Source: a virus. Taken from it: DNA of 64,000 nt. The translations under genes were made by a program, and so were the position numbers. Under the pieces are notes generated by a model. That model was not told the origin of the DNA and did not search any database. It saw only the letters and a list, made by a program, of their open reading frames with translations. Shown piece after piece: positions 28,596 through 36,357 of this stretch (positions are counted from its first letter, which is position 1; each line of letters begins with the position of its first letter). The stretch is from positions 32,881 through 96,880 of the IMG/VR virus record IMGVR_UViG_3300037483_000361; one strand, given 5' to 3'.

Positions 28596-28616
28596 AGTAA
28601 CCTCTTTCGAAAATAG

Positions 28617-28963
28617 TGGAGCTGGCGGCATCGAAGCCGCGTCCAGCAAAAAATACAACCTTGACTTCTCCGTGCGCAGTCACCTGTAAAGGTTTCACGC
28701 TTGTAGAACAAATGACAAATCTACTTTGCGTTATCCATCATCTGCAACAATATGACCGATGGCATGTCACACCGTTAGTCGGTTGTGCTGTCGTCCTAGC
28801 CTTGCTCCACGACTATCAGCTCAGTAGGACGGCTGCTAACGATTAAGCAGCGAGCTTAAGTGGTTCTGCACTTATCAGTTTGACACAGAGATTACGAGAG
28901 GTAGTGTCATCTCTCGGCACGCTTCTCTCAGTTTACTTTAGCTGTCGAATCCAGTTCAGCCCC
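28617..28963 (-). ncRNA. ssrA: tmRNA, tag peptide (A)AEPLKLAA* at 28843..28869
   Basis: 5' GGGGCTGAACTGGATTCGAC, 3' GCGGCTTCGATGCCGCCAGCTCCA with G3:U70; ATAAGT-GCA resume context; LAA stop. Confidence 0.93.
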
Positions 28964-31532: not shown

Positions 31533-31982
31533 CTAAATATGAATCAGCGTCACACCAGCTTCACGGTACAACGATTCTGCCAACTGCATGTCATCCATCC
31601 AACGAGCCATGAATGAGTTTGCCGGATCAAACACAGGCGATACAACCGTTGAAATGCCCGCTTGGATGACATGAACAGCACATCGTGAACAACTTTGCCC
31701 CGGCCAATTGTAGAGCGTGTAACCGTCTAGACGTTCTCGTGCATTCAAGATTGCGTTCATTTCACTATGAATGACTCGCTTATACTTCTCATCCCGGTTA
31801 TTGAGAAACTCGGGTGTGTCCGCAATCTTGCGTGGGAATCCATTGAATCCCACCGATGCTATCGTTTTGTCAGGACGGACAATCACCCCACCAGTTTTCG
31901 TTGAGGGGTCCTTTGAAGCAGTAGCTACATGTGCTGCTAATTGTAAATACCACACATGCCACCAATTTGGATCACGATGCAT
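31533..31982 (-). CDS. dCMP deaminase
   Basis: SKDPSTK, GFNGFP, HSEMNA, CSRC. Confidence 0.9.
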   Translation of the reverse strand: MHRDPNWWHVWYLQLAAHVATASKDPSTKTGGVIVRPDKTIASVGFNGFPRKIADTPEFLNNRDEKYKRVIHSEMNAILNARERLDGYTLYNWPGQSCSRCAVHVIQAGISTVVSPVFDPANSFMARWMDDMQLAESLYREAGVTLIHI

Positions 31983-32391
31983 GTTTTAACTCCTGCAATC
32001 TATTTGCTAACCACTTTCTCTGTTCAATAATGTCTAGTGGTATTCCAGCTTTACCACTGTTAGTCTTTGATTTAGTTTGCTGAATTGCAATTATCAATAA
32101 TGCTTGCTCCGCTTTCTCTTTTAGAAATGGAGCCAAAATTTGACAAACCTTTGCTGCTTCATTATCAGCCACCGACCATCTATACAACTGCTTATGATGT
32201 TTTTGTCGTCGTTTTTCACAAGCAAATTGACCACCAAATATTTTATGGAGCCACTCTATAGTAGGCCGATGTGAATTAGTGCAAGTAACAGCTGCTTTAC
32301 AATAACGATCTTTGGATGAATAAAAGCATCCTTCACCATCCAAAAACCCTGCCGCATATGCTAGTATAGCTTCATCCAACTTATCTGTCAT
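31972..32391 (-). CDS. free-standing LAGLIDADG homing endonuclease
   Basis: YAAGFLDGEGC; lower GC than flanks. Confidence 0.85.
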   Translation of the reverse strand: MTDKLDEAILAYAAGFLDGEGCFYSSKDRYCKAAVTCTNSHRPTIEWLHKIFGGQFACEKRRQKHHKQLYRWSVADNEAAKVCQILAPFLKEKAEQALLIIAIQQTKSKTNSGKAGIPLDIIEQRKWLANRLQELKHAS

Positions 32392-32412
32392 AACCTTTCC
32401 TATGATGATTGA

Positions 32413-32488
32413 TGATCGCTACTGGATTCGGACCAGTGGCCTCTTGCGTGTCGAGCAAGCGCTCTGAACCAGGCTGAGCTAAGCGATC
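32413..32488 (-). tRNA. tRNA-Val(GAC)
   Basis: loop TCGACAC (C33). Confidence 0.85.
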
Positions 32489-32812
32489 TTATAGTTCGTG
32501 ATTCCAAAGAATTTTTGCGTCTCCATAGGCACGCTCGAGTCCTGCGATCCGTTCACGGCGTTCGGACTGTTCCTGTTCTGAAATTCTCATATCTCCCATC
32601 TCATCTAAGTCTCTGCGTACTTCTGCAACAAACTCAGGATCGGGGCCGCGCTGGCGATAATATTGAACGGTGCCTTCAATGCGGTTGAGAAGATCGGTCC
32701 AATATTCGCCGGCCGATTCCCATCTGCGTCGAATCAAAAACGCGTTCGTCCATTGATACAATCGAATGCCAAGCAAGGTGCCAAAAACACCAATAAATAA
32801 CCCTAGAAACAT
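32489..32812 (-). CDS. membrane-anchored hypothetical protein
   Basis: GGAGG SD, N-terminal TM. Confidence 0.6.
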   Translation of the reverse strand: MFLGLFIGVFGTLLGIRLYQWTNAFLIRRRWESAGEYWTDLLNRIEGTVQYYRQRGPDPEFVAEVRRDLDEMGDMRISEQEQSERRERIAGLERAYGDAKILWNHEL

Positions 32813-32827
32813 ATAACCTCCGTTGAG

Positions 32828-33178
32828 TGGCGACCGCATAGCCGGAATTTTGTTTTAAGCCATCATCTGTCTCACGAATAAACCGTGGTCATTTCTGACT
32901 GCCGCTACCCGACTTCACAGGGCGAAAGGATGGGCCCTCAGTCTGTTTGCGTTGCATTCTCACTCGTAGTGCGAACGAAGTTGGATGTCTCTGGCCACGC
33001 TGTATTCCAAGCGTAGAAACATTCTAAGGGTCGTCCACCAGAGCTTGCCGACGCCAATAGTCCACCCAACTTCTCCTACGTCCCTTCACGAATGTCCCGA
33101 GCTTCCTCAATAACATAAACTAGGATTTCGATTCCGACTCAACGGACTAGTCTTGTTACTGCGATGGCCGGGTCACCA
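32828..33178 (-). ncRNA. rnpB: RNase P RNA (divergent)
   Basis: P1 TGGTGACC/GGTCGCCA; GAGGAAGCTCGG (CR I); AGACAGATGATGG (CR IV); ACAAAATTCCGGCTA (CR V). Confidence 0.8.
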
Positions 33179-33179
33179 G

Positions 33180-33254
33180 TCCGTTCGGGAGGATTTGAAC
33201 CTCCACATGCTGCTGTATCAGAGCAGTGCCTTCACCGGGTTTGGCTACGAACGG
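33180..33254 (-). tRNA. tRNA-Ile(GAT)
   Basis: loop CTGATAC. Confidence 0.85.
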
Positions 33255-33259
33255 ATAAA

Positions 33260-33529
33260 CTACGACTTCTTCTTTCTACTCTTTTCTCGGCGGCCGCGAT
33301 TCTTCGACTCTGCTTCAAAGCCGCTAATCTTGCCGCCTTTATGCGACGCATCTTTGCCGTCGCCATTACCATAGGTTCCCCTTTTGCGATTATACTGATT
33401 GAGTTCTGCTCGGTATTTCTTCATCTTCTTTGATGACTGAAATTTCCGATACTCGTCTTTGTAATCGCGATCTTCGAGAAGTTTGCTGACTTCTTCTTGA
33501 ATGATTTCTCTCAATTCACTTAGCTTCAT
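33260..33529 (-). CDS. small basic HNH-like protein with IIQEE..LLE leader
   Basis: RDYKDEY..GDGKDASH..NRGR. Confidence 0.6.
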   Translation of the reverse strand: MKLSELREIIQEEVSKLLEDRDYKDEYRKFQSSKKMKKYRAELNQYNRKRGTYGNGDGKDASHKGGKISGFEAESKNRGRREKSRKKKS

Positions 33530-33530
33530 A

Positions 33531-33616
33531 CGGAAGGTAAGAGATTCGAACTCTTACACCCTTTCGGATGCATCGTTTAGCAAACGAGCCCGGCACACCA
33601 TCTCCGGCGACCTTCC
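33531..33616 (-). tRNA. tRNA-Ser(GCT)
   Basis: long variable arm, loop TTGCTAA. Confidence 0.85.
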
Positions 33617-33618
33617 AA

Positions 33619-33812
33619 GCAGTAGAGCGGACTTTTGTCAGGCCAATATATGAGCGAGCAATTGCCAACTGTGAGTAGACGCTCGTTTATTACCTTCTCA
33701 ACTCAGGCGAGCGGTCGCTTCACAATCGGGCATTTGCACCAACTTTTACTGGCGTCCGTTGAGGGGACCGTGGCGATTGGAGCTTCTATTTCAGCCCTTT
33801 TCACTCTACTAC
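33619..33812 (-). ncRNA. ~194-nt long imperfect hairpin RNA (6S-like size and shape)
   Basis: GTAGTAGAGTG/CGCTCTACTGC closing stem plus nested helices. Confidence 0.45.
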
Positions 33813-33814
33813 AG

Positions 33815-33888
33815 TATCCCCGGAGGGATTCGAACCCCCAACCCCGAGCTTCGTAGGCTCGTGCTCTATCCAGTTGAGCTACGGAGAT
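33815..33888 (-). tRNA. tRNA-Arg(ACG)
   Basis: loop CTACGAA. Confidence 0.9.
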
Positions 33889-33889
33889 A

Positions 33890-34835
33890 TGAAGGGCTGA
33901 GACTACACCCTTTTCCAGTGCCACCTTTGTCAGATTATCCTACAGTGTCCCCACCATAGGTTCCCGACGTATCCACCCCTCCACGAGAGGTCTGACACCA
34001 AGACTGCTTTTGTTAAAGCGGTAGCGATTCCGCTGTCGCGACAGGCGCGCTCGACGTTTCGAATTCCGTCAGTCTTGCGGACTGTAAATGGGCGCTAACC
34101 CAAACGTGCATTTTCACATCAACGGTGCATCTCTCTTGGGGAGAGATTCCCGCCTCTGTTGTCCCGAAGGACCAGAGGATTAAGCCTCTTTTCCTCCCGT
34201 CACCGAGTCGGTCTTTCCATTTTTGGTGCTTAGCGTAGGAGTTGAACCTACAACCATTAGTTTAGCATACTAGTGCTCTACCATTGAGCTAGATAAGCGA
34301 CTTACCCGTGAAGTGCCGACTCTGTAGTTGCCAATCTCTTTTGGAGATCAGAATGCCACACTTCACTGCTGACTTTCGTTGTCACTACTCATCCAGACTT
34401 CAAGAGACATAGGCCAATTAACTCCGCTTGCTAGTGGTCCAGCGAGGACCGGCGGAATTGACCCTTCCCTATGATCATACTATCGAGCCCTTGTGATACC
34501 ACACTCGGACCAAACAATAACACTCCTTGCTAATCTACCGTCGCGTAGGGGTATATAGGGAGTCCAGCACCACCTGTCAATCTTCTCCTACGGCCGTTCC
34601 CGTTACCCTTAAGGGCCATTCACGGCGGTTACATAGAAGTTTTTCCCCTAACTACGCTTCCGGCCTATCTCCAACACTCGCGTGCTGAAGCTGTGGCCTC
34701 GCGGCCACAAAGGCGGAGCTTGCTTGGATGAACCGACCGGAATCGGCGCGGGTTGGTAAGCCTCACCGCTTTACACGTCTTGCGACGTGCTGTTCTTTTC
34801 CCCGAAGGGACGGGGCGCCAAACCGCCCCGTAAAC
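33890..34835 (-). ncRNA. giant ornate ncRNA, GOLLD-like, with embedded tRNA
   Basis: ~945 nt without a credible ORF; many GNRA/UUCG hairpins on minus strand; own promoter. Confidence 0.6.
34224..34298 (-). tRNA. atypical tRNA (GCT anticodon, short variable loop, encoded CCA) inside large ncRNA
   Basis: canonical D/T arms, loop ATGCTAA, stem mismatches. Confidence 0.6.
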
Positions 34836-34838
34836 CTG

Positions 34839-34886
34839 TTGTCAAAGATCGATACTAAATCTACTGCCTTACTGCGTATTTGTCAA
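34839..34886 (-). promoter_or_regulatory. sigma70 promoter plus boxA-like element
   Basis: TTGACA-17-TAGATT then GATCTTTGACAA. Confidence 0.7.
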
Positions 34887-34896
34887 GTGCCTATAA

Positions 34897-35445
34897 CTAG
34901 AGAGTCAATAACACTTTAGCGATGTTTTTGCTATCATCGATGCCGCGGTGAGCGGTTCCGTCAAACGGGATACCAAGATGTTCAACCGCCTTGCCGAGAC
35001 CACAACTGAATCCGTGCTTCCAACAAAACAGAGACTTCACATTCAAGTGATTGTTGTTGAACGGATTTGCTACCTGCTCACGAAGGCATTGCCGAAGGAT
35101 GATGTCTCGATCATAACAGCCCCAGCTTGCCCACATGTTCCGGTCACATCGATATTGCTTCTCTAAAAGTTCGAGTGCCTTCCTAAACGAATAGCCGTGT
35201 TCATCGACATACGCAGGCGTGAGCGTCGTTAATGCCGTACAGAACGGGCTAATCGCCGACGTAGTAGGTCGAACGATAATAGCTCGCGACTCAACAATCG
35301 TTTTCTTGTCTAGTTCGATAACTGTCAAACCAAACTCGATGATTTCGGAGTCACGCTTCTGCTGATCGGTGAAATTGCCCTGAGCGTCATGCTCCCAGCA
35401 TGTTGCTTCAACGTCAATGACCAAACAAATTTTTGGAGTGCTCAT
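34897..35445 (-). CDS. DEDDh 3'-5' exonuclease (ERI-1/KapD-like)
   Basis: IDVEATC, EIIEFG, WG.YD, HRGIDD. Confidence 0.88.
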   Translation of the reverse strand: MSTPKICLVIDVEATCWEHDAQGNFTDQQKRDSEIIEFGLTVIELDKKTIVESRAIIVRPTTSAISPFCTALTTLTPAYVDEHGYSFRKALELLEKQYRCDRNMWASWGCYDRDIILRQCLREQVANPFNNNHLNVKSLFCWKHGFSCGLGKAVEHLGIPFDGTAHRGIDDSKNIAKVLLTL

Positions 35446-35463
35446 ATAACCTTTTGCTAGTTA

Positions 35464-35619
35464 TTACTCCGTTGGAATTTCTGGTTTATCCGAATCATCA
35501 CCATTGCTGCGAGGCCGACCAATGCCGAGCCGTGAGGACGAGCTCTTTCGCGTTTTAACCAAAACAAATATTCCACCGGCCAATAGAGCTAGCGCTATCA
35601 AACCTCCAAGAAATTCCAT
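35464..35619 (-). CDS. 51-aa single-TM protein
   Basis: GGAG SD; MEFLGGLIALALLAGGIFVLVK. Confidence 0.55.
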   Translation of the reverse strand: MEFLGGLIALALLAGGIFVLVKTRKSSSSRLGIGRPRSNGDDSDKPEIPTE

Positions 35620-35961: not shown

Positions 35962-36357
35962 TTAATCATGCGACTTCAACGCCTGATGGCGTGCCTCTAT
36001 CATTGGTCCAATGTCGGCCATAATCTGAGAATACGATGACGTGAAGCCGCTTTTATGATCCTTGACTCGATTATCTGGCTCATGATACGTGCGGATGCAC
36101 TCATTAGAGATGACGTGCTCCTTCCGTTCTTGAGCCTTGACATGCGAGACGATCTTATCTGCAAGACGACGAAAGGCGATCTTGCGATTCTGTCCTTGAC
36201 TTCGTGTCTCACGACATTCAGCAAACAATCCCGTGTCAAGATGGGTGATGCGAACGCCACTATCCGATTTGTTCTGATGCTGACCGCCGGGGCCGCCAGA
36301 ACGAAATGTGTCGATTCGAAAGTCTTTGCGTCGTGCTTGAAATATGACTTGTTTCAT
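35962..36357 (-). CDS. class I release-factor-like GGQ peptidyl-tRNA hydrolase (ArfB-like, no codon-recognition domain)
   Basis: RSGGPGGQHQNK, VRITH, RSQGQNR, IRTYH..NRVKDH. Confidence 0.85.
   Translation of the reverse strand: MKQVIFQARRKDFRIDTFRSGGPGGQHQNKSDSGVRITHLDTGLFAECRETRSQGQNRKIAFRRLADKIVSHVKAQERKEHVISNECIRTYHEPDNRVKDHKSGFTSSYSQIMADIGPMIEARHQALKSHD

What the first reader, a model, noticed from the sequence alone, without database searches (positions are those of the whole stretch)
33890..34886. ~945-nt GOLLD-like RNA with an embedded non-canonical tRNA and its own promoter
The region has no credible ORF and is packed with GCAA/GCGA/GAAA/UUCG hairpins on the minus strand. A tRNA at 34224-34298 splits it into two domains. 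That tRNA has a GCT anticodon but no Ser variable arm, A32, stem mismatches and an encoded CCA, which canonical tRNAs here generally lack. Size, phage tRNA context and an embedded tRNA fit the GOLLD class; the assignment is from resemblance only. The tRNA may act as a processing signal that separates the domains.
Basis: partly seen in the sequence, partly recalled or inferred. Interest (0 to 1): 0.72.

Follow-up and report, generated by a model that had tools for sequence, protein, structure and literature searches.

The report
GOLLD phage RNA with built-in tRNA
This gene-free kilobase in an uncultured phage's tRNA cluster encodes a genuine member of the known GOLLD family of giant, cage-forming RNAs, with a tRNA-shaped piece in its central linker: a correct call, but a known kind of thing.

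Summary
Rfam's GOLLD model (RF02032) matches window 33894-34366 (minus strand) end to end at 159.4 bits (cut-off 150, E 8e-43). The tRNA at 34224-34298 sits as an insertion in the linker where GOLLD RNAs are already known to carry tRNAs. The 485 nt upstream form a 5' domain that is homologous to, and covaries with, the 5' domains of about 16 other GOLLD loci. A TTGACA-17-TAGATT promoter is conserved in two closer relatives. tRNA-Arg starts 5 nt after the last GOLLD hairpin, so RNase P probably makes the 3' end. The whole RNA is about 960 nt.

The embedded tRNA folds as a good cloverleaf. It has a Ser anticodon (GCU) on a short-arm body, whereas every free tRNA-Ser examined has the long arm, so it should not be filed as tRNA-Ser. 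Across 120 GOLLD loci, 20 carry a linker tRNA. These form a distinct class: weak acceptor-stem tops, 7-nt D-loops, low G+C and mostly NNU anticodons.

Cage formation and the fate of the tRNA are inferred, not shown; no expression data could be obtained. This scan has already found GOLLD RNAs with linker tRNAs on other DNA. Verdict: new member of a known kind.

The parts
34858..34886 (-). Sigma-70-type promoter: -35 TTGACA (34886-34881), 17-nt spacer, -10 TAGATT (34863-34858). The start of transcription is predicted near 34851 (inferred).
   Evidence: Consensus scan, 10 of 12 matches. The -35 hexamer is invariant and the -10 is TAGATT/TAGGTT/TATATT in two syntenic relatives, L125 and L126. Sites with >=10/12 matches lie upstream of the 5' domain in 5 of 13 subfamily loci against 0.48 expected.
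34367..34851 (-). GOLLD 5' domain (~485 nt). It is not covered by the Rfam model and is rich in GNRA/UUCG hairpins. It is about 50-90 nt larger than in relatives because of three extended hairpins.
   Evidence: Iterative nhmmer recruits 16 other GOLLD loci. RNAalifold gives 60 consensus pairs, 47 of them with compensatory changes. A Python run gives 94 pairs with 88.7% canonical cells against ~40% for slid controls. L125 and L126 covary in the first two hairpins.
34308..34366 (-). P14 hairpin, the first element of the Rfam 3'-domain model, with the conserved A-rich CAAAA loop.
   Evidence: cmscan alignment, model positions 1-62. Helix at columns 545-605 of alignment A1 with compensatory pairs.
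34224..34298 (-). tRNA-shaped module in the J13/15 linker: anticodon GCU, 5-nt variable loop (short-arm body), 7-nt D-loop, A73 plus encoded CCA (34226-34224), 42.7% G+C.
   Evidence: ARAGORN. Rfam tRNA model, 61.7 bits. Treated as an insertion by the GOLLD model. 19 other GOLLD loci carry a tRNA at the same site.
34195..34204 (-). Linker strand of the J13/15-L20 pseudoknot, reported as an intermolecular kissing bridge (B7) in the solved env-38 cage.
   Evidence: Bracketed positions in the cmscan alignment; 8 of 10 pairs are standard with 34037-34046. The role of this bridge is taken from PMC12286853.
34037..34046 (-). L20 strand of the same pseudoknot/kissing interaction.
   Evidence: cmscan alignment.
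33894..34366 (-). GOLLD 3' domain as defined by Rfam RF02032 (includes P14, the linker tRNA and P15-P27). It ends in the invariant GGUGUAGUCUCAGCC hairpin (about 33895-33909).
   Evidence: 159.4 bits, cut-off 150, E 8.3e-43, model positions 1-416 of 416.
33814..33888 (-). tRNA-Arg(ACG), starting 5 nt after the GOLLD 3' hairpin. Its RNase P site would define the mature GOLLD 3' end (inferred).
   Evidence: ARAGORN and Rfam. No terminator-like site on the minus strand in 33000-35600. 17 of 120 GOLLD loci have a same-strand tRNA starting within 60 nt downstream.

Best explanation
The region encodes one ~960-nt non-coding RNA of the GOLLD family, carried in the tRNA array of an uncultured myovirus.

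Proposed mechanism, with the basis for each step:
1. Transcription starts from its own sigma-70-type promoter near 34851 and runs on into the downstream tRNAs (shown by sequence and comparison).
2. RNase P cleavage at the 5' end of tRNA-Arg (33888/33889) leaves the mature 3' end 5 nt after the terminal hairpin (inferred).
3. The RNA folds into a 5' 'cap' domain (34851-34367) and a 3' domain (34366-33894) (shown by homology and covariation).
4. Like the two solved GOLLD RNAs, it assembles into a closed 10- to 14-subunit RNA-only cage through kissing loops and A-minor contacts (inferred from family membership).
5. The tRNA-shaped module sits in the flexible J13/15 linker, which in the solved structures points into the cage interior.
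6. I judge it more likely (about 60:40) that this module stays covalently attached as a non-decoding tRNA look-alike than that it is released as a working tRNA.

The biological role of GOLLD cages is unknown. The context points to a role in the phage's takeover of translation or tRNA supply: 51 tRNAs, a tmRNA, an ArfB-like release-factor-domain protein and a DEDDh exonuclease.
For: GOLLD membership:
- The GOLLD covariance model matches in full above the curated cut-off.
- The pseudoknot is kept at 8 of 10 pairs, and the A-rich L14 loop and the invariant 3' hairpin are present.
- 12 of 12 tested relatives with the same 5' domain are also Rfam GOLLD, at 158-230 bits.

5' domain and promoter:
- The 5' domain is homologous to relatives and covaries: 47 of 60 pairs compensatory; 88.7% paired cells against ~40% when partners are slid.
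- The promoter hexamers are conserved in the syntenic relatives L125 and L126 while the stems downstream covary. Promoter-like sites are enriched upstream across the subfamily, p about 7e-5.

3' end and coding potential:
- There is no minus-strand terminator, and tRNA-Arg abuts the 3' end.
- There is no credible ORF.

Linker tRNA as a non-decoding module:
- 20 of 120 GOLLD loci carry a tRNA at this exact site.
- Only 3 of 19 distinct embedded tRNAs have a full 7-bp acceptor stem, against 214 of 259 free tRNAs. 14 of 19 have a 7-nt D-loop, against 54 of 259. Their G+C is 43% against 53%.
- All 19 free tRNA-Ser in the loci are 86-93 nt long, while the three embedded tRNAs with Ser anticodons are 73-75 nt.
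- A canonical long-arm tRNA-Ser(GCU) lies at 33530-33617, so the embedded one is redundant for decoding.
- Close subfamily members L114 and L006 have only a ~40-nt linker in its place.

Literature:
- tRNAs occur in the GOLLD linker, and the linker faces the cage interior (PMC12286853; PMC12990946).
- A pseudo-tRNA inside a mycobacterial GOLLD was not detected as a separate RNA (PMC6582537).
Against:
- The GOLLD score is only 9 bits above the cut-off.
- The 5' domain was shown to be homologous only to a subfamily of GOLLD loci, not to the 5' domain of the solved env-38 RNA.
- Cage formation and subunit number are extrapolated from two solved homologues.
- This particular linker tRNA is more tRNA-like than most of its class. 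The top of its acceptor stem is intact (G1:C72, C2:G71, U3:A70), it has the G18G19 and T-loop tertiary nucleotides, an ACCA end and a mid-range tRNA score. RNase P cleavage and release therefore cannot be excluded.
- The embedded-versus-free statistics ignore shared ancestry among the loci, so the p-values are overstated.
Confidence: 0.88

Rival explanations
1. It is a GOLLD RNA, but the linker tRNA is a working gene. RNase P and 3' trimming cut it out, releasing a mature tRNA and splitting GOLLD into a 5'-domain+P14 piece and a P15-P27 piece. These may stay together non-covalently or act as a timed store of the tRNA.
For: - The top of the acceptor stem is intact, with A73 and an encoded CCA.
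- Rfam tRNA score of 61.7 bits, within the range of the window's free tRNAs.
- Standard tertiary nucleotides are visible in the sequence.
- A DEDDh (RNase_T family, KapD-like) exonuclease gene lies directly upstream.
- An 'inhibited storage' idea has been published (PMC12990946).
Against: - A short-arm body with a GCU anticodon lacks the long variable arm that every free tRNA-Ser here has. That arm is the main bacterial SerRS identity element (established knowledge), so there is no obvious synthetase for it.
- It is redundant with the canonical tRNA-Ser(GCU) at 33530-33617.
- It has the lowest G+C of the 51 tRNAs and two stem mismatches.
- 16 of 19 distinct linker tRNAs have defective acceptor stems.
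- One CCA among 51 tRNAs is what chance predicts.
- No separate tRNA was seen for a mycobacterial GOLLD (PMC6582537).
Confidence: 0.3
2. It is a new RNA class that only resembles GOLLD in size, context and embedded tRNA.
For: The score is only 9 bits over the Rfam cut-off. BLASTN finds nothing but tRNA matches in 50,697 phage records. The three closest cultured or assembled relatives by baseplate protein have no GOLLD hit.
Against: - Full-length model coverage at E 8e-43, with the pseudoknot and signature motifs in place.
- nhmmer links both halves to loci that Rfam scores at up to 230 bits.
Confidence: 0.03
3. It is not one RNA but a string of separate small structured spacer RNAs and a tRNA within a polycistronic tRNA transcript.
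For: The window's tRNA array contains many structured spacers (first-reader notes). There is no terminator and transcription runs through the whole array.
Against: The two halves co-occur in the same order in about 17 loci. The Rfam model spans the tRNA with long-range pairs on both sides. Solved GOLLD RNAs are single chains (PMC12286853).
Confidence: 0.05

Closest known systems
GOLLD RNA (Rfam RF02032); solved examples are env-38 (14-mer, PDB 9MEE) and Streptococcus agalactiae GOLLD (12-mer, 9L0R)
   Same: Complete 3' domain with pseudoknot, L14 A-rich loop and terminal hairpin. Large separate 5' domain. Phage tRNA-island context. Variable linker between P14 and P15.
   Different: Longer (~960 nt against 700-833 nt). 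The 5' domain belongs to a subfamily that shows no sequence similarity to the env-38-like loci in my sample. It carries a tRNA in the linker, which the two solved RNAs lack. Assembly was not tested here.
GOLLD RNAs with a tRNA or pseudo-tRNA in the J13/15 linker (Mycolicibacterium/Mycobacterium tRNA arrays: PMC6582537, PMC12990946; phage examples noted in PMC12286853)
   Same: Same insertion site, same setting inside a horizontally mobile tRNA array, and a tRNA of doubtful decoding function.
   Different: The published example is called tRNA-Phe or a pseudo-tRNA. Here the anticodon is GCU on a short-arm body with an encoded CCA. The host is an uncultured myovirus distantly related to Microcystis and Flavobacterium phages, not a mycobacterial island.
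ROOL RNA (Rfam RF03087)
   Same: A large ornate phage or prophage RNA near tRNA islands that forms an RNA-only cage with an internal disordered linker.
   Different: Unrelated sequence and fold. No ROOL match in the window at the gathering threshold.
Bacterial tRNA-Ser(GCU)
   Same: The anticodon GCU; a general cloverleaf.
   Different: It lacks the long variable arm that all free tRNA-Ser in this window and in the related loci have (85-93 nt against 75 nt).

Membership tests
GOLLD RNA (RF02032) | Covariance-model score at or above the curated gathering score, over the whole model | tested here: met
   159.4 bits against 150, E 8.3e-43, model positions 1-416 of 416, not truncated.
GOLLD RNA (RF02032) | Pseudoknot/kissing complementarity between the J13/15 linker and L20 | tested here: met
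   8 of 10 bracketed positions form standard pairs: 34196-34203 with 34038-34045.
GOLLD RNA (RF02032) | P14 hairpin with conserved A-rich loop, and the invariant 3'-terminal GGUGUA(A/G)UCUCAGCC hairpin | tested here: met
   Loop CAAAA in P14 and an exact 3' motif. The same motif retrieved 119 other viral loci.
GOLLD RNA (RF02032) | Large, separately folding, less conserved 5' domain directly upstream | tested here: met
   A 485-nt region homologous to the 5' domains of 16 other GOLLD loci, with 47 of 60 covarying pairs. Equivalence to P1-P13 of env-38 was not tested.
GOLLD RNA (RF02032) | Phage or prophage location, typically next to tRNA genes | tested here: met
   Virus contig of 96.9 kb; 51 tRNAs and a tmRNA on the same strand; baseplate gene in the window.
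GOLLD RNA (RF02032) | Homo-oligomeric closed cage (10-14 subunits) | not testable with these tools
   Known only from cryo-EM of two members (PMC12286853, PMC12990946).
GOLLD RNA (RF02032) | Expressed as a discrete long RNA during phage growth | not testable with these tools
tRNA-Ser (bacterial type) | Long variable arm (class II body), the main SerRS identity element | tested here: not met
   5-nt variable loop, 75 nt in total. All 19 free tRNA-Ser in the related loci are 86-93 nt, and the window's own are 85-89 nt.
tRNA (generic cloverleaf) | Cloverleaf with D, anticodon and T arms and the tertiary-contact nucleotides | tested here: met
   Rfam tRNA model 61.7 bits against a cut-off of 29. 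ARAGORN score 109.8; 6 of 7 acceptor pairs and 4 of 5 anticodon-stem pairs.

The most novel reading that the evidence does not exclude
The tRNAs built into GOLLD linkers may be a dedicated lineage of non-decoding tRNA mimics rather than spare tRNA genes. They share weak acceptor-stem tops, 7-nt D-loops, low G+C, and anticodon loops of the form YU-NN-U-AA. These loops switch freely among Lys, Asn, Arg, 'Ser' and Ile anticodons, including the GCU-on-short-arm form seen here and in L053. On this reading the cage displays or hides 10-14 such anticodon loops as bait or decoy for host anticodon nucleases or other tRNA-binding factors during infection.
Probability: 0.1. Interest if true: 0.8.

Novelty: new member of a known kind. 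Interest (0 to 1): 0.3.

Why it matters
GOLLD is one of very few natural RNAs known to build closed cages without protein, and its function is still unknown. This member adds a full-length example from an uncultured aquatic-type myovirus with 51 tRNAs. It has a clear promoter and a 3' end set by a neighbouring tRNA. Its linker tRNA has an intact acceptor end and CCA but no plausible synthetase. That makes it a convenient construct for a direct test: is a caged linker tRNA accessible to RNase P, CCA-adding enzyme or synthetases? The comparative by-product may help frame experiments on what GOLLD cages do. It shows that linker tRNAs form a distinct class, are usually duplicated by a normal tRNA in the same array, and are absent from close relatives. 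None of this changes the classification.

Tried and rejected
- **Receptor for the anticodon loop.** UGCUAA has a 6-nt complement, UUAGCA, near 34530. Over 19 loci the best own-RNA complement averages 5.37 nt against 5.28 nt for mismatched loop/RNA pairs, and the positions are not conserved. Rejected.
- **Recent duplication of another phage tRNA.** The best identity is 72% to any window tRNA and 74% to any tRNA in the 119 loci. No donor was found.
- **Near-identical relatives, to test conservation of the GCU loop and CCA.** Two exact-pattern scans of viral contigs found nothing. A protein-anchored scan of viral contigs gave one truncated locus. The metagenome scan gave two syntenic relatives, L125 and L126, but both contigs end inside the 5' domain, so the tRNA region could not be compared.
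- **BLASTN against phage records.** Only tRNA-Arg matches.
- **GOLLD in the closest phages by baseplate protein** (Microcystis phage Mel-JY01, Flavobacterium phage immuto, a 484-kb uncultured phage). No match, though the tool warns that this does not prove absence.
- **CCA as a special signal.** One CCA in 51 tRNAs is the chance expectation, and no other linker tRNA has one.
- **Sub-threshold YrlA (Y-RNA-like) hit at 34244-34347.** 22 bits, E 0.16. It merely reflects the tRNA shape.
- **Papers that could not be read.** Weinberg 2009, Morgado 2020 and the Harris & Breaker review are not held in the library.

Full report
**What is there.**
The window is part of a 96,880-bp IMG/VR virus contig estimated to be about 54% complete. 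It encodes a myovirus-type baseplate wedge protein. That protein is 37-39% identical to those of Microcystis phage Mel-JY01, Flavobacterium phage immuto and a 484-kb uncultured phage. From about 29.4 to 56.2 kb, the minus strand carries 51 tRNA genes and a tmRNA.

The flagged stretch lies between a DEDDh/KapD-like exonuclease gene (34897-35445) and tRNA-Arg(ACG) (33814-33888). It holds no ORF longer than 63 aa, and the five longest have no Pfam match. The minus strand folds far better than shuffled controls, z = -6.2.

**Family assignment.**
Rfam's GOLLD model RF02032 matches 33894-34366 on the minus strand. The score is 159.4 bits against a curated cut-off of 150, E = 8e-43, and all 416 model positions are covered. 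The alignment shows these features:
- the P14 hairpin with its CAAAA loop
- the J13/15-L20 pseudoknot, with 8 of 10 pairs kept
- the GGAUA...AUAAUC element
- the invariant terminal hairpin GGUGUAGUCUCAGCC

The tRNA at 34224-34298 is handled by the model as an insertion in the A/U-rich linker after P14. This is exactly where published work places tRNAs in some GOLLD RNAs. [quoted passage not shown] PMC12990946 reports a tRNA-Phe in J13/15 of a Mycolicibacterium GOLLD. PMC6582537 reports a pseudo-tRNA inside a mycobacterial GOLLD within a 32-tRNA cluster.

**The 5' half.**
The Rfam model covers only the conserved 3' domain, so I tested the upstream 485 nt by comparison.
- A scan of viral contigs for the 3' signature motif returned 119 loci.
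- Iterative nhmmer from this window's 5' region recruited 16 of them.
- All 12 of those that I checked are Rfam GOLLD, at 158-230 bits.
- RNAalifold on 13 sequences predicts 60 pairs, 47 with compensatory changes.
- An independent run gave 94 pairs with 88.7% canonical cells, against about 40% when partners are slid by 1-3 columns.

This member has three longer hairpins than its relatives, which explains its size. I did not show homology to the 5' domain of the solved env-38 RNA: env-like loci in the sample were not recruited. That agrees with the literature's description of a "less conserved 5' region" but leaves the P1-P13 equivalence untested.

**Ends of the RNA.**
A TTGACA-17-TAGATT site lies at 34886-34858. 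Alone it is not significant: 2 sites were found in 2.6 kb against 2.1 expected. Two lines of comparison support it.
- Two closer relatives, found through the upstream exonuclease (82% and 60% protein identity; L125 and L126), keep the same gene order.
- They have an invariant -35 hexamer and -10 hexamers TAGGTT and TATATT. The first two hairpins downstream change on both sides of the stem, for example CACGUC/GACGUG becoming CAGUGA/UCACUG around a kept GCAA loop.
- Across the subfamily, sites with >=10/12 matches lie just upstream of the 5' domain in 5 of 13 loci, against 0.48 expected.

At the other end there is no terminator. tRNA-Arg begins 5 nt after the last hairpin, and 17 of 120 loci likewise have a tRNA starting within 60 nt downstream. 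The simplest reading is that RNase P cleavage of the next tRNA sets the 3' end.

**The embedded tRNA.**
It is a good cloverleaf (61.7 bits) with these features:
- G1:C72, C2:G71 and U3:A70 at the top of the acceptor stem
- a U6.C67 mismatch and a C27.A43 mismatch
- a 7-nt D-loop
- the anticodon loop AUGCUAA
- a 5-nt variable loop
- A73 followed by CCA

It cannot be filed as tRNA-Ser. Every free tRNA-Ser in the window is 85-89 nt, and all 19 in the related loci are 86-93 nt, so all have the long arm. This one is 75 nt. A canonical tRNA-Ser(GCU) lies 600 nt downstream.

Its CCA is unique among the 51 tRNAs, but that is what chance predicts (0.8 expected). No other linker tRNA has a CCA.

**Linker tRNAs as a class.**
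Of 120 loci, 20 carry a tRNA at the same site, 320-420 nt before the 3' end. The table compares the 19 distinct linker tRNAs with 259 distinct free tRNAs from the same loci.

| Feature | Linker tRNAs | Free tRNAs | p |
|---|---|---|---|
| Full 7-bp acceptor stem | 3 of 19 | 214 of 259 | 3e-9 |
| 7-nt D-loop | 14 of 19 | 54 of 259 | 4e-6 |
| Anticodon ending in U | 14 of 19 | 85 of 259 | 7e-4 |
| Mean G+C | 43% | 53% | not tested |

Further points:
- The acceptor-stem defects are mostly at pairs 2:71 and 3:70.
- The U-ending anticodons are Lys UUU/CUU, Arg UCU, Asn GUU, 'Ser' GCU and Ile UAU.
- Linker tRNAs resemble each other more than they resemble free tRNAs with the same anticodon. Mean identity is 0.594 against 0.537, and the nearest neighbour is another linker tRNA in 8 of 17 cases against a 10% base rate.
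- L053 (GCU) and L033 (UCU) share the same anticodon stem but differ in the anticodon.
- In 4 of the 6 distinct arrays with at least 10 free tRNAs, a normal free tRNA with the same anticodon is also present.
- Two close subfamily members, L114 and L006, have only a ~40-nt hairpin linker.

These loci are related to one another, so the p-values overstate independence. Still, the picture is of an optional, drifting, tRNA-shaped module rather than a needed decoder. This window's copy is at the more tRNA-like end of the class, which keeps the release model alive; I put it at about 30-40%.

**How it most likely works.**
- Shown: family membership, two-domain architecture, linker insertion, promoter conservation, abutting tRNA.
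- Inferred from solved homologues: assembly into a 10- to 14-subunit cage with the linker, and hence the tRNA module, inside (PMC12286853; PMC12990946).
- Unknown: the function.

The neighbourhood fits a translation or tRNA-related role during infection. It contains the tRNA array, the tmRNA at 28614-28963, an RF-1-domain (ArfB-like) protein at 35962-36357 and the exonuclease. Related arrays also carry tmRNAs.

**Novelty.**
GOLLD, its tRNA-island context and its linker tRNAs are all published. This scan has already reported GOLLD RNAs with linker tRNAs on other DNA, including permuted and amber-reading ones. This is a new member of a known kind. The GCU-on-short-arm tRNA and the class-level features of linker tRNAs are modest additions.

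Noticed in passing
window 32828-33178: A first-reader note calls this a phage-encoded RNase P RNA. A permissive Rfam search of 32400-35000 (E<=1) gave no RNase P match of any type here.
   Followed up: partly
No Rfam family, 6S included, matches at E<=1. It was not examined further.
   Followed up: partly
window 34897-35445 and 35962-36357 (minus strand): Directly upstream of GOLLD lie a DEDDh exonuclease (Pfam RNase_T, closest NCBIfam KapD, below cut-off) and a 131-aa RF-1/GGQ-domain protein (ArfB-like). Together with the tmRNA at 28614-28963 they form a ribosome-rescue and RNA-processing theme around the array. The exonuclease-GOLLD gene order is kept in metagenome contigs L125 and L126.
   Followed up: partly
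window 29427-56220, all 51 tRNAs: After the discriminator base, 26 tRNAs have T and 20 have C (often C then T). Only the GOLLD-embedded tRNA has CCA. This uniform 3' context suggests a host that matures tRNAs by endonucleolytic cutting plus CCA addition.
   Followed up: no
L079:7158-7524 and L116:2259-2440: Other phage contigs with tRNA-bearing GOLLD RNAs also encode tmRNAs (two-piece/permuted type by Rfam) in the same array, as this window does.
   Followed up: no
L114 (oriented -365..-322 from the GOLLD 3' end) and L006: Two GOLLD loci with the same 5'-domain type lack the tRNA and have a ~40-nt hairpin linker instead. The tRNA module has therefore been gained or lost within a closely related group.
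   Followed up: partly
window 34838-34846, 34579-34584 and 34386-34392 (minus strand): The motif UUGACA/GUGACAAC recurs three times in the RNA. The first copy, just after the predicted start, is invariant in L125 and L126. Its meaning is unknown; it is not a complement of another segment.
   Followed up: no
window 31972-32391 (minus strand): A 139-aa ORF with a weak, sub-threshold LAGLIDADG homing-endonuclease match (E 6e-4), lying inside the tRNA array.
   Followed up: no
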